Shown here piece by piece: positions 1-23,000 of a DNA stretch of 64,000 nucleotides. Source of the stretch: an uncultured delta proteobacterium (GTDB lineage: Bacteria; Desulfobacterota; RBG-13-43-22). Position numbers and translations under genes: made by a program. Under the pieces are notes generated by a model. It was not told the origin of the DNA. It did no database searches and saw nothing but the letters and a program-made list of their open reading frames with translations. The first letter of the stretch is position 1. Every line of letters begins with the position of its first letter. Location of the stretch: positions 117,477-181,476 of the forward strand of contig CAVUPH010000010.1 of the NCBI GenBank assembly GCA_963743305.1, given 5' to 3'.

Positions 1-1460
1 TTAAGCTTCTTCAGAATCCCGGCCTCCAGCCCGTCATCGGCCATCGGGATCCTAAAATCGTAGGGTTGCCGGTCTTGGGGGACCGTGATCTCCCGGCCGA
101 ACTTGTCGTTGCAGGTGAGCTCGAGGGCGCCTGGGGCTTTTTCCTGGACCGAAAAGATAAACGCCCCGCCGTCGGTGTAGCTTCCTCCCCGGGCGTTCCA
201 ATAGCGGTCAGCCACAGTTCCAAACCGGGGGTCCTCCCGGGCCAGGCTCTGGAGGGTGGCGTCAATGGCCTGTTTTTCCGAACAGATGAGCCCGATTTCC
301 ACCTCCCCTTTTTGTAGGGCAAAGACCTGGGGACGCAGCATAGCGGTGTCGGTAATCCCGATCAACTGATATTTCCGTTGGCCGGGCATGTTCCGGGCAA
401 TAATAAAGAACCAGGGACCATCCGGGGAACCATGGATCTGGGTAGCCTGGATCTGACGATAAACCTTTTGTTTTTCGGGTGACAACTGATCGAAGTCCAA
501 TTCCGTAGTGGGGGCCAGGGACTCGATAATGTATTCCAGAGGATACCCATAGACCCGGTTTAACAAATCGAAAACCTGGACCGAAACTTCGGTATCGGTC
601 AGAAACAGGGGGACCACGTTCCGCTGAAAAAGATATTCACTGACGGAATAGTAATTGGCAAAATCGCCGTTATGGACCAAGGCTTCGTCCATCCCGATAA
701 AGGGATGGGCCCCACCCGGGTGCCAGACCCTACCTTTGGTTGGATAACGCTGGTGGGCGATCCAGACATGGGCCTTAAAATCTTCCAGACGATAATACTG
801 GGTTACCTGTTCAGCGTAACCGACGATTTTCAGAATCATCATGTTCCGACCATGGGACAAGACAAAAGCCCGTTTGTCCCCCAGGGAACTGTAGTAACGC
901 TGATTAAGTTGAAAGGAGTTCTGGTAGATGAATTCCTCCTCAACTTTTCTGGCCGAAAGCTTGTCCAGACGGCGCTCTTTTTGAAAACGGGCCAGCACTT
1001 CGGGCCGGACGCGAACGAAATAGCGCTTGACCGCCGGGGGTTCCAATTCCAGACCGGGCACGTCCCGGTAGTCGTCCACGGTGGGCAGAAAAGCCTCGTG
1101 ATCCACCCGGAAGCAGGGGCGGATAAATTGTGCCTCCAATTCGGGCAGTACGGTTTTATCCAGCAGGGCAATCTGGTAAAGGAAATCCCCATCCAGGGTG
1201 CCCTGGTCCACCCCCAGCTTGGAAGCTTCCAGCCCCACGGCGGCGATACCTCCGCCTTTACCATTGCCGCGGTTGTGCATCTGCACCGAGGGTTCGAATA
1301 TATGACGGCCACTAACCGGAATGTTGCAGGCGAAACCGGTGACCCCGCATCCGCCTTCTTCGGCCTCCGGCCGACGGGGTAAACGCCGTGCCGGATCAAG
1401 TTTTTCCAATAAATGAGCCCGCGAATGAATCAGGGCCTGTGCGCTTGACTGATAGTTCAT
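1..1460 (-). CDS. Glutamate synthase amidotransferase (Ntn-GATase) subunit of split/archaeal-type GOGAT; runs off the left edge
   Basis: Not in the ORF track because it is open at the edge. Manual translation from ATG at 1460 gives MNYQSSAQ...EAEEGGCGVTGF...MHNRGNGKGGG...HGSPDGPWFFII...ITDTAMLRP...SEKQAI, the Ntn Cys-Gly-Val motif. Start and end are in the same frame. Confidence 0.85.
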   Translation of the reverse strand, partial: MNYQSSAQALIHSRAHLLEKLDPARRLPRRPEAEEGGCGVTGFACNIPVSGRHIFEPSVQMHNRGNGKGGGIAAVGLEASKLGVDQGTLDGDFLYQIALLDKTVLPELEAQFIRPCFRVDHEAFLPTVDDYRDVPGLELEPPAVKRYFVRVRPEVLARFQKERRLDKLSARKVEEEFIYQNSFQLNQRYYSSLGDKRAFVLSHGRNMMILKIVGYAEQVTQYYRLEDFKAHVWIAHQRYPTKGRVWHPGGAHPFIGMDEALVHNGDFANYYSVSEYLFQRNVVPLFLTDTEVSVQVFDLLNRVYGYPLEYIIESLAPTTELDFDQLSPEKQKVYRQIQATQIHGSPDGPWFFIIARNMPGQRKYQLIGITDTAMLRPQVFALQKGEVEIGLICSEKQAIDATLQSLAREDPRFGTVADRYWNARGGSYTDGGAFIFSVQEKAPGALELTCNDKFGREITVPQDRQPYDFRIPMADDGLEAGILKKL

Positions 1461-1484
1461 GGTCCTTCCCGATAGTTTTTAAGT

Positions 1485-2999
1485 TTAGTCGATAACTCCG
1501 GTCAGCTCTTCCGGACGAATATAATCCAAATGCACCAATAAGTCCCAGCGACCCACCAGGTCCTGGATACGGGTCAATCCCAACCGGCGGAGCAAAAAAC
1601 GCCATTGTTTCATCCAGGCGGTATAGGAATTTATAATCCGCTGGGTACCCCAATCTTGGGTGATCAGCTTGGACAATTCGGGATCGGTGGTGGCGATCCC
1701 CCGGGCGCAGCCGCGGCCGGATTCGCAGTTGTGGCAACGCAGGCATTCCAGGGACACCATGTCCAGCGTGCCCAAACAGATGCCATTGGCGCCCAGGGCG
1801 ATGATTTTGGCGGCATCGTAAGCCGTCCGGATCCCTCCGCTGGCAATGATGGTGATTTTATCCCTGATCCCTTCGTCCTTCAGGAACCGGTGAACTTTGG
1901 GCACGGCGTACTCCAGGGGCATGGCGATATTTTTCTTGGCAATGTCCGGGGCGGCGCCGGTTCCGCCATAACTGCCGTCCAACTGCAGAATATGGGCCCC
2001 GGCAAAATAGCTGCCCACGGCCACCATGTCCACGTCGTTGGGGGTAGACACTTTGACGGAAACCAAAGCTCGGGGATTGATCTCTTTGATCCAATCGATG
2101 TGCTTTTTATGGTCCTCTACCGAGTACACGCTATGAAAGGGAAAAGGAGAAAAAAGGGAACTTCCGACCACGGCCTCCCGCATCCGGGCCACCTCCGGGG
2201 TGACTTTATCCCCCAGCAGGTGGCCGCCCAACCCCGGTTTAGCGCCCTGGGCGTATTTAAACTCCACAATGCGGACCCGTTTAATGGTTTCTTCCCGAAC
2301 CCCGAAGAGCCCGGTGGCCACCTGGGTAATGACGTGATCGTCATAAGGGATTAAGTCGTCCGGGAATCCCCCTTCACCGGTACAGCAAAAGGTTCCCCAG
2401 GCGGTTGCGGCCCGAACCCGGGAAAGCATGGAATGGATGCTGACGGAGCCGAAGGACATACCGCCCAAATAAAAGGGAACGGGCAAAGCGACTTGGGGGC
2501 GCTCATCCCCGGTCCGGTTGAGCTCGATACCCAGGGAGATATCTTCCTCCGGAATCTCCCGGGGGGGAACGACGGGGAGCCGAAACCGGATTTTGTCGAA
2601 GCCGCCGCCCGAATCTCCGGTTTTATAGTTGATATCCTGATAAGGGATCTCCCCGGTTTCGGCCATGTACCAGGTGCTGGCCAATAAATCGGAAGTCCAG
2701 CGCTTATCCCCCAGAACCTCAAAAGAAGGGTTGAGATTCAGGCGAATGGCGTCCCGAGGACAGCGGGACAAACAATAGAATTCATTTTTTTGGCAGGAAG
2801 GACCCAGACAGCGATATTCCTGGGCCACCCGGGGGCGCCGGCTGCCTTTCTGATAAACGCCGTAAGGACAAAGGGTAACACAGAGACCGCAATTATCGCA
2901 GTCCGGGGTGATGGTGATCCGGTACTTGCTTAAGGCCTGTCGGAAGCGGGAAGGCGTCCGTTTTACTTCAGGGGGAATAAACGGAACGGGGGTGTTCAT
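1485..2999 (-). CDS. Glutamate synthase FMN-binding subunit with N-terminal 4Fe-4S domain
   Basis: CDNCGLCVTLCP ferredoxin motif; GGMSFGS, TGEGG, QVATGLFGV, EFKYAQGAKPGLGGHL, GGTGAA, CLRCHNCESGRGC. Confidence 0.92.
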   Translation of the reverse strand: MNTPVPFIPPEVKRTPSRFRQALSKYRITITPDCDNCGLCVTLCPYGVYQKGSRRPRVAQEYRCLGPSCQKNEFYCLSRCPRDAIRLNLNPSFEVLGDKRWTSDLLASTWYMAETGEIPYQDINYKTGDSGGGFDKIRFRLPVVPPREIPEEDISLGIELNRTGDERPQVALPVPFYLGGMSFGSVSIHSMLSRVRAATAWGTFCCTGEGGFPDDLIPYDDHVITQVATGLFGVREETIKRVRIVEFKYAQGAKPGLGGHLLGDKVTPEVARMREAVVGSSLFSPFPFHSVYSVEDHKKHIDWIKEINPRALVSVKVSTPNDVDMVAVGSYFAGAHILQLDGSYGGTGAAPDIAKKNIAMPLEYAVPKVHRFLKDEGIRDKITIIASGGIRTAYDAAKIIALGANGICLGTLDMVSLECLRCHNCESGRGCARGIATTDPELSKLITQDWGTQRIINSYTAWMKQWRFLLRRLGLTRIQDLVGRWDLLVHLDYIRPEELTGVID

Positions 3000-4384
3000 G
3001 AGGCAACTCCTTTTCCCAGGGAGGCAAAAACATCCGCCTCCAGGTCTTCAAAAAACATGGCCCGGCCCATCTCCCCCCGCAGGCGACGGGCTTCCCGAAT
3101 TCCCATGGCTCCCATGATCTCCAGCAGTTGGTTATGCCAGCCGGCCATTAAATTCCTGATCCGGGCTTCCCCCCGAGGCGGATAGATCTGATCGATAGTC
3201 ACCGGGCAGGGGATGCCGGCGGCGCAGCGACGGCAAACCCGGCATTCCAGGGCGATCAACAACGGGATGTCCACGGCCACGGCATCGGCCCCGCAGAGGA
3301 TCAGTTTGGCCAGGTGTTCCGCCATGGAGATTCCGCCCCCGGCAATGACGGTAATCTGGTCGCGGACTCCAAAGCGAACCAAGTGGAGGTGGATTTCTTT
3401 GATCCGGTCTTTGATATACCAGGGATCCTCTCCCTGTTCCCGCCCCAGTTCATTGGCTATGAAATGGAGGATTTCTATCCCGTCTTGGGCCAGTTCCAAG
3501 GCCCGTTCGCTGGAACGGGCCGAGAGGGGTAACCGGACCGCGATGACCGCTTGGGCGTTGATAGCCTTCAATTTCCGCAGGCGTTCCAGGACCCGGGGGC
3601 CGTCGGGGATTTCGATCAGACGCAATTTCTTGATCAATTCCGGGTCCACGGTTTCCACCGCCTGATTGATATAGAGCAGGACATGGTCCAGGTATTGTTT
3701 CAGGCTGGGTTCCCATTCCTGCTGGGAGATCACCGCAAAGGAGCCGATGCCCCGGGCCCCCCGAAGCAGGGTATGATTGATGCGGTCCCGGGGAGGCGAC
3801 CAGGGCAGGAGATCGAAAATAATCGGCAAGGGGATTTCCACCAGGGATTGGGTCGGTGACAGCAGGTTTCCCCGGTCATCGAACTCCAGCGACATCCATT
3901 TGCGCCCCAGATCCACTTGGGTACTGATATACTCCCGGCCGTGAATCCCGTCCCGGGTCGGCCGGACAATTTCCGACATATCCGTCCACATGGCATCAAA
4001 GCCCGGACCGGAGAAAGTCCCTCCATACCCGGCCCCGGAAACGGGGATCCTTCCGGTTTCCGCCTGAAACCATAAGGTGGAGATGATTTCGGGGGTCCAA
4101 TAGGCATCCCCCAGCTTCTTATATTCCGGGTTCAGGGATTTGTGGATCAACCGATTGGGGCAGTTCTGGACACAGCGGAAACAGTCTTTACAGAGGCTGT
4201 CCAGAGAATCCACCATCAGGCGGGCATCGAGATTTTTTTTGTCATAAACGCCGTAGACGCAATCCCGCTTCACGCAGCGAGGGCATTTGAGGCAGCCTTC
4301 TTCCCAGGCGATCACCCCGGAACGGGTGATGGTCGGGTAGCGGTTGGGGACGTTGGCCGTTTGAATATGGTACTTCGCTGGCAT
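2996..4384 (-). CDS. Second, degenerate glutamate synthase FMN-domain protein with ferredoxin domain
   Basis: CKDCFRCVQNCP, GAGYGG..SGPGFD, IAGGGI, GADAV, CRVCRRCAAGIPCP present; lacks MSFG and GAKPGxGG; 4-nt overlap with the next gene. Confidence 0.8.
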   Translation of the reverse strand: MPAKYHIQTANVPNRYPTITRSGVIAWEEGCLKCPRCVKRDCVYGVYDKKNLDARLMVDSLDSLCKDCFRCVQNCPNRLIHKSLNPEYKKLGDAYWTPEIISTLWFQAETGRIPVSGAGYGGTFSGPGFDAMWTDMSEIVRPTRDGIHGREYISTQVDLGRKWMSLEFDDRGNLLSPTQSLVEIPLPIIFDLLPWSPPRDRINHTLLRGARGIGSFAVISQQEWEPSLKQYLDHVLLYINQAVETVDPELIKKLRLIEIPDGPRVLERLRKLKAINAQAVIAVRLPLSARSSERALELAQDGIEILHFIANELGREQGEDPWYIKDRIKEIHLHLVRFGVRDQITVIAGGGISMAEHLAKLILCGADAVAVDIPLLIALECRVCRRCAAGIPCPVTIDQIYPPRGEARIRNLMAGWHNQLLEIMGAMGIREARRLRGEMGRAMFFEDLEADVFASLGKGVAS

Positions 4385-4414
4385 AACTTAATCCTTTAAA
4401 AGCGGTCTTTATTA

Positions 4415-4445
4415 TAGCCAAAAATATTGCAAATATTTTTGGCTA
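4415..4445. promoter_or_regulatory. Perfect 14-bp AT-rich inverted repeat between metF and the glutamate synthase genes (operator or hairpin)
   Basis: tagccaaaaatatt-gca-aatatttttggcta; overlaps the metF stop and a TATAAT on the minus strand. Confidence 0.55.
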
Positions 4446-5366
4446 GAGGTTCGGTCGGGGGAAAAGGCCCGCGCCTTCCACTATCGGGGGAACGACCTCC
4501 TCCCATTCAATGGCCATGATATGGACCCCGTGCACGCCCTTCATTTCTTTCAGGGCCTGGATGGTTTCGATACTTATCTTCACGCCCTCCCGACGCTGTT
4601 CCTTGGCCGGAACGGCCTTCATCCGTCGAATGACTTCCTCGGGGATATCCATTCCGGCCACCTTACTATTCATATATTCGGCCATCTTGGACGATTTCAA
4701 GGGGGTGATCCCGCCTAAAATATAGACCTCACGGTCCAGATTGCGCTCCCGCACTTTATCCATCCACTCGGAGAAGCGGGCCAGGTTATAGATGCATTGG
4801 GTTTGGATGAACTCCGCCCCGGCCTTAACCTTTTTGGCCAACCGCAGGACCCGGTACAAAAAAGGGTCGGCAAAGGGATTGGCCGCCGCTCCGATAAACA
4901 GGTCCGGGGACACGGTCAGAGGCTCTCCTCCCAGGACCTGGCCCTGGTCCCGCATCTGCCGGGCGGTGCTGATCAACTGGAGGGAGTCCAGATCGAAGAC
5001 TCCTCTGGCCTGGGGCTGATTGCCGAAGGATTGATGGTCCCCGCTCAGGCAGAGGACATTGCGAATTCCCAAGGCCGAGGCCCCCAGGAGGTCCGACTGC
5101 AGGGCGATTCGATTCCGGTCCCGGGTGACCATCTGCAGCACCGGGTCCAGCCCGGCCTGGCGAAGCAGGGTGCAGGCCGCCAGGCTGCTGAGGCGCACCA
5201 CCCCGGTTTGGTTATCGGTGACGTTGACGCTGTCCGCGTATCCGGCCAGCAGTTTTCCTTTTTTAAGGATGGCCTCGGGGTCGGCGCCTTTAGGAGGCCC
5301 GCACTCGGCGGTGACGGCGAAATGATCGGCGGCTAAGACTTTTTTTAACTGGCTTTCCGTTTTCAA
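4443..5366 (-). CDS. metF: Methylenetetrahydrofolate reductase MetF
   Basis: TAECGPPKG, NVTDNQ, RDRNRIALQSDLLGA, LSGDH, KKVKAGAEFIQTQ. Likely TTG start at 5366 overlapping the metV stop; the ORF-track start at 5651 is over-extended. Confidence 0.9.
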   Translation of the reverse strand: MKTESQLKKVLAADHFAVTAECGPPKGADPEAILKKGKLLAGYADSVNVTDNQTGVVRLSSLAACTLLRQAGLDPVLQMVTRDRNRIALQSDLLGASALGIRNVLCLSGDHQSFGNQPQARGVFDLDSLQLISTARQMRDQGQVLGGEPLTVSPDLFIGAAANPFADPFLYRVLRLAKKVKAGAEFIQTQCIYNLARFSEWMDKVRERNLDREVYILGGITPLKSSKMAEYMNSKVAGMDIPEEVIRRMKAVPAKEQRREGVKISIETIQALKEMKGVHGVHIMAIEWEEVVPPIVEGAGLFPRPNL

Positions 5367-6031
5367 TTCCTTTGGTCCTCCCTGATGATTTTTCTGGGAC
5401 CGGTTCCCTGTTGACGCGACCAGTCCGCGGGGGGGTAAACCGTTTCCAGTTGCGAAAGTCGCCCCGATTCTTCCAGGCGGTCCACAATGAGCTGCCAGGC
5501 GCAGGGGACTTCGGGGTCCACTTCGCATTGGCCGTTCTGAGAGCCCCCGCACGGTCCGTTGAATAATTGCTTGGCACAGCGGGTAATGGGGCAGATATCC
5601 CCGAAAAGATGCACCCGGCAGTGGCCGCAGCCGCGGCAATTCTCCAGCCAAAGTCCCGGCTCCTTGGTTTGTCCTAAAAAGGTGGTGTTCAGGGCCGGCA
5701 GAATAGGGATTTTGGGAAAGACTTCGGCTACGGCTTGTACCCCGGCCCCGCAGGCCAAAGACAGGACGGCCTCGTACTGATCTACCAGACCGGTCAGTTG
5801 ATCGATGAACTCATAAACGCACTGGCGTTCCAGGGTCATTTCCCTGGTTTCCAAATCCCGGTTGGTCATGCGGGCTTCCATGCGCAGGGCGGAGGCCAAC
5901 AACCCGGTTTCCCGCTCGCCGCCGGCGGCGCATTCGGCCACGCAACTGCCGCAGCCGACCACCAAGATTTTTTGGTAGGGGGAAATCATGGCCAGGATCT
6001 CTTCCATGGGTTTTCGTTCGGCGGTAATCAT
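5363..6031 (-). CDS. metV: MetV (Cys-rich MTHFR partner subunit)
   Basis: GCGSCVAEC, ERQC, ACGAGVQ, CRGCGHC, CPITRCAKQLFNGPCGGSQNGQCEVDPEVPCAW. Confidence 0.9.
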   Translation of the reverse strand: MITAERKPMEEILAMISPYQKILVVGCGSCVAECAAGGERETGLLASALRMEARMTNRDLETREMTLERQCVYEFIDQLTGLVDQYEAVLSLACGAGVQAVAEVFPKIPILPALNTTFLGQTKEPGLWLENCRGCGHCRVHLFGDICPITRCAKQLFNGPCGGSQNGQCEVDPEVPCAWQLIVDRLEESGRLSQLETVYPPADWSRQQGTGPRKIIREDQRN

Positions 6032-6069
6032 GCTCGGGCTCCAATCAAAAAGATAAAATAGTAAAAAAA

Positions 6070-6489
6070 CTACAACCGGCGCAGGAGCGAATGCCCCTTA
6101 ACCGGTATCCGGGTCAGGAGTTCCCGGGTGAGTTGATCGATGGCTTGGGGCAGGGGCGGGCGGGTCATTACCAAAACCAGTCGCTCGGGATCCATTCCGA
6201 TTTCCTGAATCAACTTTTGGGCGTATTGAATCCGCTTCCGGGCGCGGGTGTTGCCTTGCTGGTAGCGGCAGGCTTTTTCAGGGCAGGTGATCAGAAAGAC
6301 CAGATCCGCCCCCGACTCCATGGCCCGCAGGAAATGAAGCGATTCAATGCGTCCGCTGCAGGGGAGTGGGAAAAATTTGATTCGCGGGCCCAGTTCTTTT
6401 TCTATCACCCGGCGGTTAAGGTCTTGAGCCGGATCGATCTGCTGGCAGAAAAAAATATCGATTTTCATATCGGACGGATTAGTACTCAT
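6070..6489 (-). CDS. mvhD: MvhD-like [2Fe-2S] electron-transfer subunit
   Basis: FFC...LPCSGRI...GADLV..TCPEKACRYQQGNTRARKR...EIGMDPERL. Confidence 0.85.
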   Translation of the reverse strand: MSTNPSDMKIDIFFCQQIDPAQDLNRRVIEKELGPRIKFFPLPCSGRIESLHFLRAMESGADLVFLITCPEKACRYQQGNTRARKRIQYAQKLIQEIGMDPERLVLVMTRPPLPQAIDQLTRELLTRIPVKGHSLLRRL

Positions 6490-6639
6490 AAAAAATACCC
6501 ATCAAAAATTATTTATAATTAAATAGTCGCTTTATTTATTTTGATCAAAAAGGAAAACTTATAATTAATCATATTTTTTAATAAAAAGCAATAAAAAATT
6601 GTCTTTATCCTGAGGGCCAAAGGTTCAAGGCAGCTAGAG

Positions 6640-7968
6640 CTATAAAATCGGAAGATATTTTTCAAGCTCATAGCGGCTAACATGGGTCCGGTAACGATCC
6701 CACTCAATTTCTTTATTCTCGATAAATTTTTCAAAAATATGGTCTCCGAGGGCCTCCCGGACCAGGGTGCTTTTCTTCACTTCCTGAAGGGCCTCATAGA
6801 GATTTCCGGGAAGCGAGTGAATTCCTCGGGCCTCCCGTTCTTTCTGATTCATTTCATAAATATCTTCTTCAATGGGGTCCGGGATGGGGTACTTGCCCTC
6901 GATACCGGCCATTCCGGCGGCCAACTGGACGGCGAAAGAAAGATAAGGATTGCAGGCCGGATCGGGCGAGCGGAATTCAATCCGGGTGGCCTGTTCTTTG
7001 CCCGGCTTATACATGGGGACCCGGATCATGGTGGACCGGTTGCGCCGGGCCCAGGAAACGTAGACCGGGGCCTCGTAACCCGGCACCAGGCGTTTATAGG
7101 AATTGACCCATTGGTTGTTGATGGCCGTCATCTCCCGGGCATGGCGCATCAGCCCGGCGATATAGCCCTTGGCAGTCTCTGAAAGATGAAAAGGATCCCC
7201 TGGATTAAAAAAGGCATTTTTAGAGCCCAGAAACAAGGACTGATGGGTGTGCATGCCGCTGCCGTTGATCCCGAATACGGGTTTGGGCATGAAGGTGGCG
7301 TACACCCCATGGCTGCGGGCGATCTCCTTGACCACGATCCGGTAGGTCATGGTCATGTCGGCCATCTTCAGTCCTTCGGCGTAGCGGAGATCGATTTCAT
7401 GCTGGCTGGGAGCGACCTCATGGTGGCTGTACTCTACTCGGATATCCATGGACTGGAGGGCGAAAATCGTGTCTCGCCGCAGGTCACTTCCCAAGTCTAT
7501 CGGACGGGAGTCAAAGTACCCGCCCGCGTCCAGAAACCGGGGTTCCCCGTTGTCGGCGAAATAAAAATACTCCAGTTCGGGCCCCACAAAAAACGTATAG
7601 CCTTTTTCCATGGCCCGGGCCAGCAGGCGCTTAAAGGCGAAGCGGGTGTCGCCCGGATAGGGCGTGCCATCGGGCTGCAGAATATCACAGAATAGACGGG
7701 CCACCGGCCTCTCTCCCTGACGCCAGGGGACTAATTGAAAGGTGGTCGGGTCTGGTTTAGCGATCATATCGGACTCTTCGATGCGGGCAAACCCTTCGAT
7801 CGAAGAGCCGTCAAAGCCCATACCCTCGATCATCCCCTCCTCCAATTCCGAGGGGGTGACGGCAAAACTTTTCAAAAGGCCCAGGATATCGGTAAACCAG
7901 AACTGAATGAAACTGATGTTTTTGTCCCGAACCAGGCGAAGCACATCTTCGGGTGTTTGACTAAGCAT
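6640..7968 (-). CDS. glnA: Glutamine synthetase, type I-alpha (short form)
   Basis: [54 protein letters not shown]; lacks the I-beta insertion; AAGGAGG precedes ATG at 7968. Confidence 0.93.
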   Translation of the reverse strand: MLSQTPEDVLRLVRDKNISFIQFWFTDILGLLKSFAVTPSELEEGMIEGMGFDGSSIEGFARIEESDMIAKPDPTTFQLVPWRQGERPVARLFCDILQPDGTPYPGDTRFAFKRLLARAMEKGYTFFVGPELEYFYFADNGEPRFLDAGGYFDSRPIDLGSDLRRDTIFALQSMDIRVEYSHHEVAPSQHEIDLRYAEGLKMADMTMTYRIVVKEIARSHGVYATFMPKPVFGINGSGMHTHQSLFLGSKNAFFNPGDPFHLSETAKGYIAGLMRHAREMTAINNQWVNSYKRLVPGYEAPVYVSWARRNRSTMIRVPMYKPGKEQATRIEFRSPDPACNPYLSFAVQLAAGMAGIEGKYPIPDPIEEDIYEMNQKEREARGIHSLPGNLYEALQEVKKSTLVREALGDHIFEKFIENKEIEWDRYRTHVSRYELEKYLPIL

Positions 7969-8012
7969 GCGGTAGTCCTCCTTAGGCACTAAATTTTTTC
8001 CCGATAAGGAGG

Positions 8013-10948
8013 TCATATTAGCTCACCGGATACCGAGGATCTACCTTTTTTACGGGTCGGATTGAAAATCTTCTGAAAATGGAGGCGAATATTTTGGGTC
8101 ACCTTGCGATAATGCCGGTAAAGATCCCAGGAAAGGATCGGCACCCGAGGTGCCTGGCCCAAGCCCATTAAATCCAGTTTTTCCAGTCGCTTGATCTCTT
8201 CCGGGAGGTAGGTCCGCGGCTCTTCCCGCCGGTCCAGGAGGAGCTGTAACCCGTGATCCAGGGAGCACAAAAACTGATGTCCGTCCCGCAAAATTAGATA
8301 GGTCTCTTCCGTCAGGCCCCCCGTATCCCGCAGGGCCTGTAAAACTTTCAAGGTGTTGGTTTGGCGGACCTCGGGAACCTGGAGGCCGTGGAGCCGCTGT
8401 AAATATTGGGTGATAAATTCAACGTCGCTCATGCCCCCATAGCCCAATTTGGGGTTGACCCGTTCGCTCCCTTCCCCGGACCGCTCCACTTCCATACGTT
8501 TGCGAAAATACGCCATTTCTTCCCGAATACCCGCGGGGGCAGGCGTTTGATAGAGAAGCCTCTGAATTTCCTCCCGGATTTTCTGGGCCAGGGGTTCCGG
8601 CCCGGCGATCACCCGGGCCTTGAGCAGCATTTGCAGTTCCCAATTCTGGGCCTGGTGACGGTAATACTCCCGAAAAGATTCCAGGGAAACGACCAGGGGC
8701 CCAAAGGTCCCGGAAGGCCTTAACCGGGTATCCACCCCATAACCCGGACCTTCCTTGAGGGGCAGAGAGATATATGAAATCAAGCGCTGGGCCAACCGGA
8801 CCAGATATTCACTCCAGGTTATCCAGGGACGAGACTCTTTTGACCGAGTGGCCCGCGAAGCGGATTGGGCCTCATCGGGAAAGACGGTCTTTAAGGAATA
8901 AACGAACATCAGGTCCAGGTCGGAGGCATAGCCGAGGTCCTGACCTCCCAATTTCCCCAACCCTAGAATGCAGAAAGGGGCCAAGGGGCGGGCCTTGGAA
9001 GATCGGGGATAAATGGGATGAATCACTTCCCGACTGAGGGTATCTTCGGCGACCCGGGCGGTTTCCACAATCACTTGGTCCGCCAATAGAGACAATCGTT
9101 CGGAGGCCTCGGAGGGATTCAGCCTCCCGGCCATTTCCTCCAGGGCGATTTCCAGAAAATGCTCGTTTTTCCAGCGGCGCAGCCGGGAGAGGTTGTCTTC
9201 CAGGTCCGGGTGCGCCGGTCGTTTAACCGGCAAGGGACTGGGCCAGTCGGAATAAAAGGAAAAGCCGCTTTCCCGGCGCAGGGCCAGACGATCAACCAGC
9301 TCGGGATTCTGGATAAAGAACCGGGACAGCAGGGTGCTTCGGGCAAACAAATGGAGGATTTCCGTTAACAGGGTGGTCCGTTCCAGGAGCATGGACAATA
9401 TCCCGGTCCGCCCGCCGAGGCTCCTCAAAAAAAGGTCCAAAAAATGAAGGGTTTGATCCGGGTCAGGGGTTTGAATAACCCCGTGGAGCAGCGCGGGAAC
9501 TATTCGGATCAACAATTCTTTTTCTCTTTGGGCCCGTTGGGAAGAGGCCATGCGTTTTTTCCAAGAAACGAGAATTTCCCGGGCTGCGGCCCATTGGTGA
9601 AACCCCAAGGCCGTAAGCGAGGTTTTCCAATCTTCGGGTTCTTGCGGCTCAAAGAGACGCGAAACTTCCCGGGGAGAAACCGAGTACGGCGCCAGCAGCA
9701 GTTGAGCGAAGGTCTGTTGTACCCCTTCCCGGATCTGGGCCAGTTCGCGAAGCCAGCTTTCCAGGCTCAAGGGTTCCGTTGATTTCCGTCGAGGCATGGA
9801 CCGGGCCACCTGGTGCAAGGGTCCGGGTTCCTTGGGCAGGCTATGGGTTTGTCGTTGGTGACGCATTTGGAGACGATGTTCCAAGGTTCGCAAATAGGTA
9901 TAAGCCTTTACCAGGTGGCGATATTCTTCTTTGGGCAGCAGACGGGTCTGATACAGCCGGCGCAGGGCCGCCAAGGTATTTCTTTCTCTAATCGCCGGGA
10001 GTCGGCCCCCAAAAACCAACTGCAGGGCCTGGACGATAAATTCGATTTCCCGAATCCCCCCGGGTCCGAGTTTAATGTTGTTGTCGGCCAGCAGATGGGA
10101 ACGGGCTTCCTGGAGTATTCGTTCCTTAAGTCCCCGGATATCCTCCAGAACACTGTAGTCCATTACCCGGCGGTAAACGACCGGTTGGATTCCCTCCAGA
10201 AAACGTCGTCCCAAGTCCAGGTTTCCGGCCACCACTCGGGATTTGATCAAGGCCATCCGTTCCCAGGTCTTAGCCTCCGACTGGTAATATTCCAAGGCAT
10301 TTTCCAGGCTGAGGGCCAACTCGGAATCTTTCCCGCCGGGACGGAGGTTTAAATCCACCCGAAAAACCAAATCGCCGTTCATCAGGGCGGCCATGGACTG
10401 GGTGATACGCCGGGTCAGGAGTTGGTAAAATTCCCTTTGCTCGCCAAAAGAAAAGGGAAGGTCCGCCAGGGGTTGATAAAGGAAGATCAGATCGATGTCG
10501 GAACTGAAATTCAGTTCCTCCCCCCGAATTTTCCCAACCCCAGAACTACCAGCCCTTTTTGTTCCAGCAAAATAGGGTTCCAGCTTTTTCCTTTGACCAG
10601 TTCCCGGTAGCTAAAGGCTGTGGCCATCTCCAAGCAAACTTGGGCCAGGTTGGTCAACTCCTGGGTACAGTCCCTTAAGGAAATCCGGCCTCCCAAGTCA
10701 CGGGCGGCAATACGCAGGATCTCCGCCTGTTTGAAGCGCCGCAAGGAGAGGCCGAAGGCCTGAAAATCCTCCCGGCCGTCCAATTGATTCCGCAACATCT
10801 GGCCCAACTGGTTTCGAGACAACCGGGAATGGTATCCTTCCCGGAGAAAGATCTCCTCGGCCAACGAAGGCTGCTGCTGAAGGACCTGGCTCAGGTAAGG
10901 GGAAAAAAGCCGAATTTCATCTAAAAGGGACTGGCCATCGGGGGACAT
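8013..10948 (-). CDS. glnE: Bifunctional GS adenylyltransferase/adenylyl-removing enzyme; one frameshift near 10520
   Basis: Two NT motifs: GLGKFGG-EELNFSSDIDL (restored by adding one G to a G-run) and GLGKLGGQDLGYASDLDL; RVDLNLRP, WERMALIK, KLGPGGIREIEF. Confidence 0.9.
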
Positions 10949-10994
10949 GGTTTTTAATCAGCGGGTTCTGAACTGGTTAGGGGTTAACGTTGGG

Positions 10995-11047
10995 GACGGT
11001 GGACGGCGAAGCCCTCCGATTTAAGGATAGATTCGCCGCCCGCCGCC
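10995..11047 (-). terminator. GC-rich stem-loop between glnA(I-beta) and glnE; possible mRNA stabiliser or partial terminator
   Basis: gacggtggacggcgaa ... ttcgccgcccgccgcc imperfect inverted repeat; no U-tract. Confidence 0.4.
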
Positions 11048-11083
11048 GATACGTTGACCTTTCTGCTCGTGCCTCAAGATCGT

Positions 11084-12497
11084 TTAGATATCAAAATAAA
11101 GCATGAATTCATGAGGATGGGGACGAAGCCGCACCGGGTTTACTTCCCCCTCGGTCTTGTACTCGATCCATTTCTCGATCACATCCGGGGTAAAGACATC
11201 GCCGCGCAGCAAAAATTCATGATCTTCCTTCAGGGCGTTCAGGGATTCTTCCAAAGATCCGGGAGCCGAAGGCACATTGGCCAATTCCTCCGGGCTGAGG
11301 CCGTAAATGTCCTTGTCTAAAGGTTCTCCGGGGTCGAGACGGTTTTCAATCCCGTCGAGCACGGCCATCAGAATGGCCGAAAAGGCCAGATAGCCGTTGC
11401 AGGAAGGATCGGGGGTCCGGAATTCAAGCCTTTTGGCCTTAGGAGAAGGAGAATACATGGGGATGCGGATGGCGGCGCTGCGGTTTCGGCTGGAATAGGC
11501 CAGATTGACCGGGGCTTCAAATCCGGGGACCAGACGTTTATAGGAGTTGGTGGTCGGGTTGGTGAAGGCGCACAGGGCCCGAGCATGTTTCAGTATCCCG
11601 CCGGCGGCATACAGGGCCTGCTGGCTGAGACCGGCATACTTGTCCCCGGCGAAGAGGGGGTTGCCGCCCTTCCACAGGCTGACGTGGGTGTGCATGCCCG
11701 ACCCGTTGTCGGCGAAAAGCGGTTTGGGCATGAAGGTAACGGTCTTGTTGTTCCTTTTGGCCACGTTCTTGATGACATATTTGAACCACATGAGTTGGTC
11801 GCCCATCTTGACCAGGGGCTGAAACTTCATGTCGATTTCCGCCTGCCCGGCCGTAGCCACCTCGTGATGCTGACATTCGATTTCCATGCCGAGCTGTTCC
11901 ATGACCAGGACCATTTCCGTGCGCAGGTCCTGCTGGCTGTCGGTGGGGGAAACCGGGAAATAGCCTTCTTTGTGGCGGGGTTTATAGCCCAGGTTGGGAT
12001 TTTCTTCCGCGGCCGCTGTTCCAGACCCCCTCCACCGAATCGATCTGATAAAAGGCGAAATTGGATCCTCCGTCGTAGCGGATGTCATCGAAGATGAAAA
12101 ATTCGGCTTCCGGACCAAAGAAAGCCGTATCGGCCAACCCGGTAAACTTCAAGTAGTTCTCCGCCTTATGGGCAATATTGCGCGGGTCCCGGCTATAGGC
12201 TTCCTTGGTTATGGGGTCGGCTACGTTGCAGATCAGGCTTAAGGTGGGGACGGCCATAAAGGGGTCCATGACGGCTGTATCCGGATCCGGGATAACCAGC
12301 ATGTCGCTGGCGTGAATGGGCTGCCAGCCCCGGATGCTCGAACCGTCAAAACCGAAGCCCCCCTCAAAGGAACCTTCGTCCAGTTCATGGAGCGGGACGC
12401 TGAAGTGCTGCCAGATGCCGGGGAAATCCAGGAACTTCAAATCCACCATCTTGGTCTTGTTCTTTTGGGCGAACGCTAAAACTTCTTTCGGGGTCAT
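11084..12497 (-). CDS. glnA: Glutamine synthetase, type I-beta; one frameshift near 12008
   Basis: [41 protein letters not shown] insertion, [13 protein letters not shown], adenylylation loop [10 protein letters not shown]; two ORFs join by removing one base. Confidence 0.93.
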
Positions 12498-12569
12498 TTT
12501 CTTAATCCTCCTTAGATTTGGGTGATGGTTGTTAAAACAAATTTGATTTACCTGTAAATTATTATCTGG

Positions 12570-15161: not shown

Positions 15162-15201
15162 TTCCCTAATAAAGGAGTTCTTTGAAGGCCGTCGATCAAA
15201 A

Positions 15202-15555
<354 letters not shown>

Positions 15556-15609
15556 CTACCTGTCCGGACGCGTCTGGATTAATTGAATTTGTGGAATAAT
15601 TTATATTAA

Positions 15610-15625
15610 AGCAATCCCTGTGCCA
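15610..15625 (-). promoter_or_regulatory. Sigma54 -24/-12 promoter of the glnB-glnD-glnA-glnE-glnA operon
   Basis: Minus strand TGGCAC-AGGGA-TTGCT, full consensus match. Confidence 0.85.
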
Positions 15626-15784
15626 TTCCCCAAAAATATATAAAAAAACAGTAATAACAATGGGCTAAAAAAAATAGACCTCGGAGATCCTCGGATTATA
15701 ATTATACAATATAGTAATTAATTTACCTAATAATTATACATTATTGTAATACAAACCAATAAAATTGAAAAAACGTTTTTTATA

Positions 15785-16519
15785 TTAATGAACGGATTTT
15801 CCTTTTGTTTCCAGGAGCTGGAGGTAGCCCAGTAAAACCCGCCGGGCCTGGGCCTGAAGACGCTCCAGATAAATAGCGGCGTCCCGAAGAATATCCTGGG
15901 CCGTGTTCGGTTGGGGGCGGGCCTTTCGAATGTCTTCCCCCCAAGAGGCCAGCCAGGTCTCCAGCATGGGTTGGGTGATTTCCAGGTGGAATTGAAACCC
16001 GTAGGCCATCGTCCCCCAGCGGAAGGCCTGGTGAGGATAGGCGGGGTTGCCGGCCAGGCAGTCCGCCCCGGGAGGGAGGTCGAAGGTCTCTCCATGCCAC
16101 TGGAAGACCATGAAATAAGGATCCAACTGGGAAAAAAGGGGATCGTTTCGCGCCGAAGGGGTCTGGTTCAGCCAGTACCAGCCTATTTCCTTATGAGGTC
16201 CGGGATAGACCCTGGCCCCTAGGGCCTTGGCCATAAGTTGGGCCCCCAGGCAGATTCCCAAGACCGGCTCCTCCGTTTTCAGGGCCTTCCGGAGAAAGGG
16301 TATTTCTTTTTTGAGATAGGGATAGGCCTTTTCCTGATTGGCGCTCATGGGTCCGCCCATGACCAGAGTCAGACCAAACCCGTAAGGGGAGGCGGGGAGA
16401 TCCGCTCCGGCAAAGAGAGGCAGGATCTCCAAGCCCCATCCCAGTTCCAGAAGGATTTCTTCAAACAGGCCTCCCCGTTCTTCGGCAGTATGCTGGAGAA
16501 TGAGAGCCGTTTTGTTCAT
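15785..16519 (-). CDS. Class I glutamine amidotransferase (GMP-synthase-like, stand-alone)
   Basis: VMGGPMS, LGICLGAQL (catalytic Cys), QWHGETF, FQFHLE (His-x-Glu). Confidence 0.88.
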   Translation of the reverse strand: MNKTALILQHTAEERGGLFEEILLELGWGLEILPLFAGADLPASPYGFGLTLVMGGPMSANQEKAYPYLKKEIPFLRKALKTEEPVLGICLGAQLMAKALGARVYPGPHKEIGWYWLNQTPSARNDPLFSQLDPYFMVFQWHGETFDLPPGADCLAGNPAYPHQAFRWGTMAYGFQFHLEITQPMLETWLASWGEDIRKARPQPNTAQDILRDAAIYLERLQAQARRVLLGYLQLLETKGKSVH

Positions 16520-16539
16520 TACCCGCCTCGTCACGCCTT

Positions 16540-16890
<351 letters not shown>

Positions 16891-18121: not shown

Positions 18122-18176
18122 GGTTGTTTCCTCCCCCTGTAAAAAGAAATTTTTTCAAATCGTTGCCGATTGTAGA

Positions 18177-18192
18177 GGCAGGAAATGTGCCA
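18177..18192 (-). promoter_or_regulatory. Sigma54 promoter of amtB-glnK-GATase
   Basis: Minus strand TGGCAC-ATTTC-CTGCC. Confidence 0.75.
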
Positions 18193-18322
18193 AAAGGTAT
18201 TTTTATATTTTTTTTAATAAAATTTCGATAGGTTATATAAATATTTCCCCATAACGGGCCGTTTCATGTTAATCCAAAATTGTATTATTTTTTTTATTTT
18301 TAGACAATTTTGTTATGTATTG

Positions 18323-18361
18323 GATTGGGGAGGGAGGGGGAGAGGACCCTCCCTCCCAATC
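18323..18361 (-). terminator. Stem-loop downstream of the second glnK
   Basis: gattggggagggaggg...ccctccctcccaatc inverted repeat. Confidence 0.6.
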
Positions 18362-18399
18362 CGCGACCTCATCAAGCAATTCAAGGGTTTCTACGTCCG

Positions 18400-20425
<2,026 letters not shown>

Positions 20426-22989: not shown

Positions 22990-23000
22990 TAGCACCTCCA

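What the first reader, a model, noticed from the sequence alone, without database searches (positions are those of the whole stretch)
1..6489. mvhD-metV-metF placed directly before a split glutamate synthase: candidate folate- or Fe-S-coupled GOGAT module
Seen: mvhD, metV and metF are tightly packed (39-nt gap, then a 4-nt overlap). They are followed 58 nt later by two ferredoxin-FMN glutamate synthase subunits and a separate Ntn amidotransferase, at the end of the gln operon. No NAD(P)H-binding GltD lies upstream within the window. Established: in acetogens such as Moorella, MetVF pairs with MvhD/Hdr as an electron-transfer complex, and the physiological donor of archaeal-type GltS is poorly defined. 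Inference: this MetVF-MvhD copy may be dedicated to nitrogen assimilation, passing electrons from methyl-THF oxidation or an Hdr-like bifurcating partner to GOGAT. That would link C1 metabolism to ammonium assimilation.
Basis: partly seen in the sequence, partly recalled or inferred. Interest (0 to 1): 0.8.

Follow-up and report, generated by a model that had tools for sequence, protein, structure and literature searches.

The report
Glutamate synthase wired to MetVF
Six same-strand genes at the end of a nitrogen-assimilation gene island join a split, iron-sulfur-rich glutamate synthase to a methyl-folate enzyme (MetVF) and a small iron-sulfur adaptor (MvhD); many anaerobes keep this pairing, which probably lets them pay for nitrogen assimilation with electrons from one-carbon metabolism.

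Summary
On the minus strand lie glnA, mvhD, metV, metF, a degenerate Glu_synthase paralog (GltA462), a full FMN/Fe-S synthase subunit (GltB504) and an 875-aa amidotransferase+GXGXG protein that runs off the left edge. No gltD follows.

The linkage is not unique. GltA462 relatives occur in at least 576 species-level genomes. 67 of the 80 best loci carry metV and/or metF in the cluster, and mvhD is present in 73 of 73 loci with enough upstream DNA. In a phylum sample, 91 of 301 genomes have the ortholog.

MetF entered the cluster several times: an AU test rejects one clade (p 1e-47). The glt-linked MvhD forms its own subfamily and is predicted to bind GltA462 (score 0.66, best control 0.00). In other lineages a GlcD-like FAD/Fe-S dehydrogenase stands in place of mvhD-metVF, either as a separate gene or fused.

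Best reading: one complex, a glutamine-dependent glutamate synthase with plug-in electron-donor modules, here methyl-THF oxidation by MetVF. No biochemistry exists. Seven literature searches found no description. The scan noted this module earlier on at least 7 other genomes.

The parts
6070..6489 (-). mvhD: small [2Fe-2S]-type adaptor of the glt-linked subfamily
   Evidence: PF02662, 80.5 bits. Cys15, 44, 69 and 74 are invariant in 26 orthologs. It forms its own branch apart from Hdr-linked MvhD. It is predicted to bind GltA462.
5363..6031 (-). metV: Fe-S subunit of MetVF-type methylene-THF reductase
   Evidence: PF12225, 122.5 bits. It is 50-54% identical to the three other MetV copies of the genome.
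4443..5366 (-). metF: flavin subunit, methylene-THF reductase / methyl-THF dehydrogenase
   Evidence: PF02219, 134 bits. The catalytic Glu, Asp and Gln positions align to Thermus MTHFR and are kept in at least 95% of 52 glt-linked copies. The TTG start overlaps the metV stop.
4417..4443 (.). 27-nt perfect palindrome in the metF-gltA spacer; one copy of a dispersed REP-like element
   Evidence: 22 copies with at most 4 substitutions in the genome. It is absent in G003 and G007. It has no U-tail and was not flagged as a terminator.
2996..4384 (-). GltA462: 2x[4Fe-4S] ferredoxin-like N-terminus, a hyperconserved motif block, and a TIM barrel with a 4-Cys cluster. It is a degenerate paralog of the synthase subunit, possibly the counterpart of the GltS central domain.
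1485..2999 (-). GltB504: ferredoxin-like N-terminus plus the FMN/Fe-S glutamate synthase domain
   Evidence: PF01645, 290.6 bits. It aligns to Azospirillum GltB 848-1169 with the AQGAKPG..GG block and the cluster cysteines.
1..1460 (-). 5' part of the 875-aa GATase(class II)+GXGXG gene; it continues 1167 nt beyond the left edge (L001:16309-18936)
   Evidence: Cys38 sits in GGCGVTGF after a leader of about 37 aa and is kept in 98% of 59 orthologs.
6490..6639 (.). 150-nt AT-rich (GC 0.24) glnA-mvhD spacer
   Evidence: One RNA-library contig of a relative joins glnA to mvhD without it.
6640..8016 (-). glnA: type I glutamine synthetase, directly upstream
   Evidence: Pfam 410 bits. TIGR00653, 511.5 bits, above its cut-off.
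8013..10948 (-). glnE: GS adenylyltransferase, read as two ORFs (10948-10511 and 10394-8013)
11084..12497 (-). A second glnA, read as two overlapping ORFs
12570..15266 (-). glnD: PII uridylyltransferase
15202..15543 (-). 113-aa ORF that I recognise as PII (GlnB/K); no family search was run on it
   Evidence: translation only; the name is recalled.
15611..15625 (-). Exact sigma-54 consensus at the head of the co-directional gln/glt array
   Evidence: 1 match in the window, 0.08 expected by chance. The consensus itself is recalled.

Best explanation
The six genes encode one soluble flavin/iron-sulfur enzyme. It is a glutamine-dependent glutamate synthase (GOGAT) that has no NAD(P)H subunit. Instead it carries a plug-in electron-donor module.

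The proposed core is GltB504, GltA462, the GATase+GXGXG protein and MvhD.
- The amidotransferase releases ammonia from glutamine after its leader is removed to expose Cys38.
- GltB504 reduces 2-iminoglutarate at its FMN.
- GltA462 is a non-catalytic paralog that carries three Fe-S clusters.
- MvhD docks on GltA462's ferredoxin-like domain and 4-Cys cluster.

In this window the donor module is MetVF. MetF oxidises 5-methyl-THF to 5,10-methylene-THF, and the electrons travel MetF flavin -> MetV Fe-S -> MvhD [2Fe-2S] -> GltA462 Fe-S -> GltB504 Fe-S/FMN.

Shown: the gene content, the conserved catalytic residues, the conserved and repeatedly re-invented linkage, the nitrogen-island context and a predicted MvhD-GltA462 interface.
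Inferred: that all six proteins form one complex, that MetV touches MvhD or GltA/B, and the direction of electron flow.
For: 1. Anatomy. A complete GOGAT parts list is present with catalytic features intact. GltB504 aligns to Azospirillum GltB 848-1169. The GATase Cys38, HQRYPT and HNGDFANY motifs are conserved in 59 orthologs. GXGXG scores 56.2 bits. The MetF catalytic Glu/Asp/Gln are kept, and only 2 positions discriminate it from Hdr-linked sisters.

2. Linkage.
- 67 of 80 best loci have metV and/or metF in the cluster. 43 have the full six-gene order. Only 3 loci that are complete on both sides lack metVF.
- Of 41 kin genomes, 26 have the GltA ortholog. 18 have metF directly upstream, 2 have it downstream behind HdrL, 1 has a GlcD-like gene and 5 are cut by contig ends.
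- Of 20 loci taken one per further family, 13 have metF in the cluster, 2 have metV only, 3 have mvhD only and 2 have GlcD-like.

3. Repeated recruitment. Upstream, downstream and Dehalococcoidales glt-linked MetF lie in different MetF lineages. The AU test rejects one clade for all 60 (delta lnL 360, p 1e-47).

4. MvhD is a core subunit. It is present in 73 of 73 loci with at least 1.1 kb upstream. The 20 Hdr-linked MvhD sit on one side of a branch (SH-aLRT 92) from the 75 glt-linked ones. Predicted binding to GltA462 scores 0.66 (runs 0.69, 0.41, 0.66) against a best control of 0.00. That mark was reached by 58 of 80 solved complexes and 2 of 110 mismatched pairs. Partner pLDDT is at least 79 and contact agreement at least 71%. 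The interface lies at GltA462 residues 23-90 and 384-392, next to its cluster cysteines.

5. Rosetta-stone analogy. A GlcD-like FAD/Fe-S dehydrogenase takes the place of mvhD-metVF directly upstream of gltA. It is fused to the whole Glt module in a protein of about 2530 aa, found in 146 protein clusters.

6. Context. The array follows nif, amtB, PII, glnD, glnA, glnE and glnA, behind a sigma-54 consensus.

7. Energetics. Methylene/methyl-THF is taken as -200 mV (PMC8760232, section 15). The GOGAT acceptor couple is more positive by my own recalled estimate of about -70 mV, so the flow is downhill.
Against: - No biochemical, transcript-level or structural datum exists for any member.
- Only MvhD-GltA462 was modelled. 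MetV-MvhD and MetV-Glt contacts are untested.
- The complex score is a model's confidence obtained with my own alignments.
- 3 complete loci, 3 of 20 family representatives and the metV-only forms show that the core works without MetF. MetF may therefore be accessory.
- With cellular glutamate pools, my rough estimate brings the GOGAT couple near -200 mV. That would leave little driving force from methyl-THF.
- Variants with HdrL beside the cluster fit an NAD(P)H/Hdr input at least as well.
- This genome has a second split GltS-like cluster with a Pyr_redox_2 partner, and a GDH. The window's module is therefore not demonstrably the only route to glutamate.
- A REP-like hairpin and a perfect TATAAT lie in the metF-gltA spacer, so a separate promoter for gltA cannot be excluded here.
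- The main glt-linked MetF group has only moderate support (SH-aLRT 84).
Confidence: 0.45

Rival explanations
1. The complex is the same, but electrons enter from a low-potential or bifurcating source. That source would be reduced ferredoxin docking on the ferredoxin-like domains, or an HdrL/HdrA module encoded elsewhere and docking through MvhD. MetF and GltB504 would then both be acceptors. Methylene-THF reduction and glutamate synthesis would share one input, possibly as the exergonic branch of a flavin-based bifurcation.
For: - Purified MetVF takes electrons from reduced ferredoxin and not from NAD(P)H in vitro, and its physiological partner is open (PMC8760232, abstract and section 15).
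- MvhD is the classical HdrA adaptor, and Moorella-type MetFV works with HdrABC-MvhD (passages in PMC5736913, and PMC7483475).
- Several lineages place HdrL-mvhD-metVF directly before or after the glt genes (G039, G005, G016, G058, G080; HdrL lies 1.5 kb downstream in Dehalococcoidales).
- This genome has three HdrL/HdrA-linked MetVF sets and 14 MvhD hits.
- HdrL carries a GltD-like NAD(P)H module.
Against: - No Hdr gene is conserved in the flanks of the 80 best loci.
- The glt-linked MvhD is a separate subfamily from the Hdr-linked one.
- Where Hdr is present, a second MvhD comes with it.
- Both acceptors are 'high-potential', so joining them gives no obvious energetic gain.
- The GlcD-like replacement looks like a substrate dehydrogenase, which is a donor.
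Confidence: 0.2
2. These are two co-regulated but physically separate enzymes. One is an MvhD-containing ferredoxin-type GOGAT. The other is a MetVF that adjusts methyl-THF supply (methionine, SAM, C1 balance) when nitrogen is assimilated. They stay neighbours because they share a nitrogen-controlled promoter.
For: - The core occurs without metF in part of the loci.
- The metF-gltA spacer is variable (15 to about 160 nt) and here holds a hairpin and a TATAAT.
- Gene neighbourhood alone often does not mean binding.
- The glt-linked MetF is almost indistinguishable from catabolic copies at conserved positions.
Against: - Different MetF lineages were recruited independently into the same cluster in different orders.
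- metVF is inserted between mvhD and gltA, which are adjacent partners elsewhere and are predicted to bind.
- metV occurs alone in the same slot (7 of 80 and 2 of 20 loci).
- Spacers are as tight as 15-17 nt in kin.
- The genome already has a canonical MetF and three other MetVF sets for housekeeping and catabolic needs.
Confidence: 0.2
3. The Glt-like proteins are not a glutamate synthase. They would catalyse a related amide-transfer/flavin reaction (N-methylglutamate-synthase-like, GlxBCD-like) that uses a folate-bound C1 unit.
For: - N-methylglutamate synthase is built from the same three domain types and works beside a GS-like enzyme and folate-dependent steps (recalled, no call).
- GltA462 has a hyperconserved block of unknown role.
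- No curated NCBIfam model names GltA462 or MetV.
Against: - The neighbour is a type I GlnA above its equivalog cut-off, with GlnE, GlnD, PII, amtB and nif.
- GltB504 keeps the 2-oxoglutarate/FMN block of true GltB.
- The genome's other cluster (C32: GS-like + GATase + GXGXG + Glu_synthase) is the better candidate for that chemistry.
Confidence: 0.05

Closest known systems
Split ('archaeal-type') glutamate synthase: separate amidotransferase, ferredoxin-fused FMN subunit and GXGXG protein. The type is recalled. Putative F420-dependent forms are mentioned in PMC9012536 (passage read).
   Same: The same three catalytic/structural domains sit on separate genes. The FMN subunit has an N-terminal 2x[4Fe-4S] domain. 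There is no GltD. The physiological donor is undefined.
   Different: Here there is an extra degenerate paralog (GltA462) with three clusters, a dedicated MvhD, a GATase fused to GXGXG, and MetVF (or GlcD-like, or HdrL) modules in the operon.
MetFV-HdrABC-MvhD methylene-THF reductase of Moorella thermoacetica, as summarised in PMC5736913 and PMC7483475 (passages read)
   Same: The mvhD-metV-metF gene trio. MetF and MetV are of the same families. The window's own genome has three such Hdr-linked sets.
   Different: There is no HdrABC in this cluster, and Glt proteins stand where Hdr would be. The MvhD belongs to a different subfamily.
MetVF-type (type II) methylene-THF reductase of Clostridium ljungdahlii (PMC8760232; abstract and section 15 read)
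   Same: A MetV+MetF heterodimer with FMN and Fe-S, with no NAD(P)H use. The physiological redox partner is unknown, and MetV is discussed as a docking module.
   Different: That enzyme stands alone and is proposed to dock to Rnf/Ech. Here the suggested partner is a glutamate synthase, and the suggested direction is methyl-THF oxidation.
NADPH-GOGAT GltBD (Azospirillum brasilense, PDB 2VDC/6S6S) and ferredoxin-GOGAT (Synechocystis, PDB 1LLW/1OFD)
   Same: GltB504 aligns to the FMN domain (E 5.5e-48). The GXGXG and Ntn-GATase domains are present. A leader precedes the catalytic Cys, as in bacterial GltB (the GltB leader is recalled).
   Different: The domains are split over three genes. There are four cysteines rather than three at the cluster site. 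There is no GltD. The central domain is possibly replaced by the Fe-S-bearing GltA462.
GlcD-like-FAD/Fe-S + Glt fusion proteins of about 2530 aa ('glutamate synthase-related protein' / 'FAD-binding protein' in source records)
   Same: The same GltA-GltB-GATase-GXGXG core beside glnA.
   Different: The donor module is a FAD-linked oxidase domain instead of MvhD+MetVF. Everything sits on one polypeptide. It is uncharacterised as far as my searches show.

Membership tests
Glutamate synthase (GOGAT), split type | FMN/synthase domain (PF01645) with the 2-oxoglutarate/FMN block | tested here: met
   GltB504 scores 290.6 bits against a cut-off of 20.4. It aligns to Azospirillum GltB 848-1169 with the AQGAKPG..GG block.
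Glutamate synthase (GOGAT), split type | Class II (Ntn) amidotransferase with a catalytic N-terminal Cys | tested here: met
   Cys38 in GGCGVTGF is kept in 98% of 59 orthologs, and HQRYPT and HNGDFANY are conserved. The Pfam GATase_6 hit is below its cut-off (23.9 vs 27). Leader removal is inferred.
Glutamate synthase (GOGAT), split type | GXGXG beta-helix domain | tested here: met
   PF01493 scores 56.2 bits against a cut-off of 32.5.
Glutamate synthase (GOGAT), split type | Fe-S cluster cysteines next to the FMN site | tested here: met
   The three GltB cluster cysteines align, and there is one extra Cys (CxxCxxCx5C).
Glutamate synthase (GOGAT), split type | Glutamine- and 2-oxoglutarate-dependent glutamate formation | not testable with these tools
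   This needs an enzyme assay.
NADPH-GOGAT (GltBD) | A GltD-type NAD(P)H/FAD subunit (PF14691+Pyr_redox_2) encoded with the large subunit | tested here: not met
   There is none in the window or beside any Glu_synthase gene. The PF14691 hits lie in HdrL fusions and a gene I read, by its place beside the FTHFS/HdrL locus, as Nfn-like (that gene was not scanned).
MetVF-type methylene-THF reductase | MetF (PF02219) with the catalytic Glu/Asp/Gln | tested here: met
   134 bits. The residues align to Thermus MTHFR and are kept in at least 95% of 52 glt-linked copies.
MetVF-type methylene-THF reductase | MetV (PF12225) encoded directly upstream and translationally coupled | tested here: met
   122.5 bits. 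There is a 4-nt TTGA overlap.
Moorella-type MetFV-HdrABC-MvhD complex | hdrA/hdrB/hdrC in the same cluster | tested here: not met
   There is no Hdr gene in the window's cluster, and none is conserved in the 80 loci. Hdr is present in other arrangements.
MvhD/FlpD family | PF02662 with four cluster cysteines | tested here: met
   80.5 bits against a cut-off of 22.3. Cys15, 44, 69 and 74 are invariant. It scores lowest of the 11 full-length PF02662 hits of the genome; only three partial or weaker hits score less.
N-methylglutamate synthase / GlxBCD-like | GS-like (type III/GMAS) partner, no ferredoxin domains, amine substrate | tested here: inconclusive
   The partner here is type I GlnA above its equivalog cut-off, and the Glt subunits carry ferredoxin-like domains. 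The substrate cannot be tested.

The most novel reading that the evidence does not exclude
There is a whole family of glutamate synthases with exchangeable, directly wired donor dehydrogenases: methyl-THF (MetVF), a 2-hydroxyacid-type FAD enzyme (GlcD-like, separate or fused), and NAD(P)H/HdrL. These let energy-limited anaerobes spend 'stranded' electrons of about -200 mV, which cannot reduce NAD+, on nitrogen assimilation. In the Hdr-linked versions the GOGAT reaction would serve as the high-potential acceptor of a bifurcating complex, so that assimilating ammonium yields reduced ferredoxin.
Probability: 0.2. Interest if true: 0.9.

Novelty: new variant of a known kind. Interest (0 to 1): 0.78.

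Why it matters
Two long-standing gaps would close at once if this reading holds.

1. The electron donor of ferredoxin-domain ('archaeal-type') glutamate synthases has never been defined.
2. The physiological redox partner of MetVF-type methylene-THF reductases is an acknowledged open problem (PMC8760232).

A direct wire between them would link the Wood-Ljungdahl methyl branch to ammonium assimilation. The module occurs in a large share of Desulfobacterota-like genomes (91 of 301 sampled). Record titles also place it in Nitrospirota, Dehalococcoidales, Latescibacterota and others. Metabolic models of syntrophs, sulfate reducers and dehalogenators would have to draw nitrogen and C1 budgets differently.

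The comparative pattern (MvhD core; MetVF, GlcD-like or HdrL modules) gives concrete, testable constructs.

Tried and rejected
- **Sigma-54 promoter upstream of mvhD.** None is in the 150-nt spacer. The only exact consensus in the window is at 15611-15625.
- **Rfam.** The gathering scan of 1-20000 gave no match, so there is no known riboswitch or leader.
- **Terminator scan.** The 4417-4443 hairpin is not terminator-like because it has no T run. I rejected it as a conserved operon break because it is a dispersed repeat and is absent in kin.
- **Metatranscriptomes.** Two runs from one study hold contigs that are mostly 90-95% alike, so they come from relatives. They touch 28 of 30 and 26 of 30 bins and bridge metV/metF. 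Contigs cannot show a single transcript, and DNA may be present in such libraries, so uncovered bins mean nothing.
- **AF2 model of GltA462.** Mean pLDDT is 66.7, and residues 1-152, including the hyperconserved block, are below 50. Only the barrel could be compared.
- **NCBIfam.** There is no family for MetV or GltA462.
- **Literature.** The phrase search 'archaeal-type glutamate synthase' gave 0 papers. The other six searches returned only papers that mention the terms separately. Papers I looked into gave nothing on the linkage: PMC5736913, PMC7325909, PMC9012536 and its bioRxiv version, PMC2702500, PMC7483475 and PMC5606693 by passages, and PMC8760232 by abstract and section 15. Supplements were closed and may hold gene tables that list such clusters.
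- **Hdr genes in the flanks of the 80 best loci.** No conserved family was found.
- **N-methylglutamate reading.** I considered it and gave it low weight (see rivals).
- **Protein Atlas.** It returned only automatically named 'glutamate synthase (NADPH) family / related' clusters and added nothing.
- **** was my own slip, a reference of zero length. It was corrected.

Full report
**What is there.**
The window is G000:C10:117477-181476. All genes of the finding lie on the minus strand. In order of transcription they are:
- glnA (8016-6640);
- a 150-nt AT-rich spacer;
- mvhD (6489-6070; PF02662, 80.5 bits);
- metV (6031-5363; PF12225, 122.5 bits);
- metF (5366-4443; PF02219, 134 bits), whose TTG start sits in a TTGA overlap with the metV stop and has GGAGG upstream;
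- a 58-nt spacer;
- GltA462 (4384-2996);
- GltB504 (2999-1485; PF01645, 290.6 bits);
- a gene starting at 1460 that leaves the window.

I read on in the genome. That last gene is 875 aa long. It has a class II amidotransferase part and a GXGXG domain (56.2 bits). It is followed by a convergent radical-SAM/B12 gene, not by gltD.

**The parts look functional.**
- GltB504 aligns to the FMN/synthase domain of Azospirillum GltB (848-1169, E 5.5e-48). It keeps the AQGAKPG..GG block and the three cluster cysteines, plus a fourth.
- The amidotransferase keeps Cys38 in GGCGVTGF after a leader of about 37 residues (98% of 59 orthologs). It also keeps the HQRYPT and HNGDFANY blocks. Bacterial GltB is likewise made with a leader that is cut off (recalled).
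- MetF keeps the Glu, Asp and Gln that align with Thermus MTHFR. These are kept in at least 95% of 52 glt-linked copies. Only two positions separate the glt-linked group from its Hdr-linked sisters.
- MvhD has four invariant cysteines.
- GltA462 is the odd one.
  - It is 25% identical to GltB504 over its whole length.
  - It has eight invariant N-terminal cysteines in two ferredoxin-type motifs and a 4-Cys motif at 381-393.
  - It has a hyperconserved block at about 105-155.
  - It lacks the substrate block and hits only the last third of PF01645 (42.3 bits).
  - Its confident model region is an FMN-type barrel.
  - Weak matches point to the central domain of GltS.
  - It is fused head-to-tail with GltB in a 1090-aa protein of a Latescibacterota record. 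It also sits in open frames of about 1000 aa in 11 genomes of the phylum sample.

**Context.**
Upstream on the same strand lie nifB-like and nitrogenase-type genes, ammonium transporters, a class I GATase, a 113-aa ORF that I recognise as PII, glnD, a second glnA, glnE and glnA. An exact sigma-54 consensus sits 68 nt before the PII ORF. It is the only match in the window, against 0.08 expected.

The genome has no large GltB and no GltD next to a Glu_synthase gene. It does have a second split GltS-like cluster with a GS-like gene and a Pyr_redox_2 gene, and a GDH. It also has an acetyl-CoA synthase. There are three further mvhD-metV-metF sets behind HdrL/HdrA genes, one of them next to FTHFS, and a canonical MetF.

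**Is the linkage more than chance?**
I examined three samples.

Among the best 80, a sample biased towards the window's own type:
- 43 have the full order mvhD-metV-metF-gltA-gltB-GAT.
- 67 have metV and/or metF in the cluster.
- 13 have neither, and 10 of those are cut by a contig end on the relevant side.
- mvhD is present in 73 of 73 loci with at least 1.1 kb upstream.

(b) Among 41 kin genomes chosen by kinship, 26 have the ortholog:
- 18 have metF directly upstream (two of these carry stop codons in it).
- 2 have metF 9-11 kb downstream behind HdrL.
- 1 has a GlcD-like gene.
- 5 are undetermined because of contig ends.

(c) In an even sample of the phylum, 91 of 301 genomes have the ortholog (74 of 259 high-quality genomes; 56 of 200 genera). 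I fetched one locus from each of 19 further families, with two from f2. I picked them by family and contig length, not by content:
- 11 have mvhD-metV-metF-glt.
- 1 has HdrL-mvhD-metV-metF-mvhD-glt.
- 1 has mvhD-glt-HdrL-mvhD-metV-metF.
- 2 have metV only.
- 3 have mvhD only.
- 2 have a GlcD-like FAD/Fe-S gene in place of mvhD.

**Trees.**
I built a MetF tree of 116 rows. It held 60 glt-linked copies, 38 Hdr-linked copies and 18 others. Seventeen fragments or over-long ORFs were dropped. The method was quick IQ-TREE.
- 52 of 54 upstream glt-linked copies fall in one group (SH-aLRT 84, not starred).
- That group is sister to Hdr-linked copies that include the window genome's FTHFS-linked one (joint clade 97).
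- The Dehalococcoidales copies and the downstream copies lie elsewhere.
- Holding all 60 glt-linked copies together costs 360 log-likelihood units (p-AU 1e-47). I chose this test after seeing the tree.

MetF therefore joined the glt genes more than once.

In an MvhD tree of 96 rows and 139 columns, the 20 Hdr-linked copies sit on one side of a branch (SH-aLRT 92). The 75 glt-linked copies, with or without metVF, are interleaved on the other side. MvhD thus goes with the Glt core, and MetVF comes and goes.

**Predicted contact.**
I modelled MvhD against GltA462, each with about 25 orthologs. The median score was 0.66 (runs 0.69, 0.41, 0.66) and the best of three controls was 0.00. That mark was reached by 58 of 80 solved complexes and 2 of 110 mismatched pairs. 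Partner pLDDT was at least 79 and contact agreement at least 71%. The interface uses GltA462 residues 23-90 and 384-392, which are its ferredoxin-like domain and 4-Cys motif. The model supports binding; it does not show it. My own alignments were used.

**Exchangeable modules.**
- In G031 a single 2531-aa ORF beside glnA carries FAD_binding_4, Fer4_8/17, two Glu_synthase regions and GXGXG.
- 146 protein clusters of 1392-4430 aa match its first 700 residues. Most are about 2530 aa long and carry the same Pfam set plus FAD-oxidase_C.
- In G100 the same dehydrogenase is a separate 630-aa gene 42 nt before gltA. G198 and G021 have it too.

The slot before gltA is therefore filled by mvhD alone, by mvhD with metV, by mvhD with metVF, or by a FAD-linked substrate dehydrogenase. 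This is why I read MetVF as a donor module.

**Energetics.**
The methylene/methyl-THF couple is taken as -200 mV, NAD as -320 mV and ferredoxin as -450 mV (PMC8760232, section 15). From recalled standard values I estimate the 2-oxoglutarate+glutamine / 2 glutamate couple at about -70 mV. That is downhill from methyl-THF. High cellular glutamate would shrink the margin.

**The spacer and expression.**
- The 27-nt palindrome (4417-4443) folds at -14.9 kcal/mol for the 76-nt stretch. It has no U tail.
- It has 22 copies with at most 4 substitutions on many contigs.
- It is missing in G003 and G007, whose spacers are 15-17 nt. In G002 it is accompanied by about 100 further bases.
- I conclude that it is a REP-like insertion and not a conserved operon boundary.
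- Two metatranscriptome runs from one study hold contigs of relatives over most of the cluster. These include contigs across the metV/metF junction and one that joins glnA to mvhD without the AT-rich spacer. This shows presence in RNA libraries only.

**Literature and earlier notes.**
Seven full-text searches found no paper on a MetVF-glutamate synthase link. The library holds open-access papers and bioRxiv only, and supplements were closed.

The scan's own notebook lists the same module in at least 7 other genomes, plus Hdr-linked forms. I treated those notes as leads. I re-tested the linkage, the degenerate paralog, the N-terminal leader and the Hdr variants myself.

**Verdict.**
The finding is real and widespread. 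It is best explained as a glutamate synthase with a dedicated MvhD and an exchangeable donor module, here MetVF. The mechanism is inferred. The main rivals are a shared low-potential or Hdr input, and mere co-regulation.

Noticed in passing
window 4417-4443, and 21 other places in the genome (C4, C5, C6, C7, C8, C11, C13, C14, C18, C21, C30, C31, C39, C40, C42): A dispersed 27-nt palindrome family (GCCAAAAATATTT-N-AAATATTTTTGGC) has 22 copies with at most 4 substitutions. It is either a REP-like element or the operator of a global regulator.
   Followed up: partly
window 8013-10948, 11084-12497, 16891-18121: glnE, a second glnA and an amtB each read as two ORFs. These are possible frameshifts, pseudogenes or assembly errors in an otherwise intact nitrogen island.
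   Followed up: no
window 15202-15625: An exact sigma-54 consensus lies 68 nt upstream of a 113-aa PII-like ORF. It heads a co-directional array of about 16.8 kb: PII, glnD, glnA, glnE, glnA, mvhD, metVF and glt.
   Followed up: partly
window 21730-24392 and beyond: nifB-like (radical SAM + Nitro_FeMo-Co) and nitrogenase component 1-type genes lie upstream of the amt/gln genes, so the organism may fix nitrogen.
   Followed up: no
G000:C32:91707-97583 (L135): A second split GltS-like cluster holds a GS-like gene, a 299-aa GATase, a 234-aa GXGXG protein, a 419-aa Glu_synthase (356 bits) and a 409-aa Pyr_redox_2 protein, with a GDH about 4 kb away. It could be an NAD(P)H-type split GOGAT or a GlxBCD/N-methylglutamate-type system.
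   Followed up: partly
L205:7105-14700 (G031), P0001-P0120; L223:13988-15880: Giant proteins of about 2530 aa fuse a GlcD-like FAD-linked oxidase and Fe-S domain to GltA, GltB, GATase and GXGXG (146 clusters). The same dehydrogenase is a separate gene before gltA in other genomes. Its substrate is unknown.
   Followed up: partly
L123:1746-5018; 11 genomes with open frames of 975-1086 aa: Natural GltA-GltB fusions occur in the order central-like then FMN domain, as in canonical GltB.
   Followed up: partly
window 6490-6639: The 150-nt glnA-mvhD spacer has GC 0.24. One RNA-library contig of a relative joins glnA to mvhD with only 3 other bases between, so the spacer may be a recent insertion.
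   Followed up: no
G000:C8:53189-53557, C26:89424-89792, C33:65835-66206, C10:52162-52530: Several Hdr-linked MvhD hits of the genome contain one in-frame TGA or TAG. This may be selenocysteine or another read-through.
   Followed up: no
G012:C34:5925-6700; G014:C14:22837-25231: In two kin genomes the glt-linked metF (and gltA in G014) carry several stop codons. This is either decay of the module or sequencing error.
   Followed up: no
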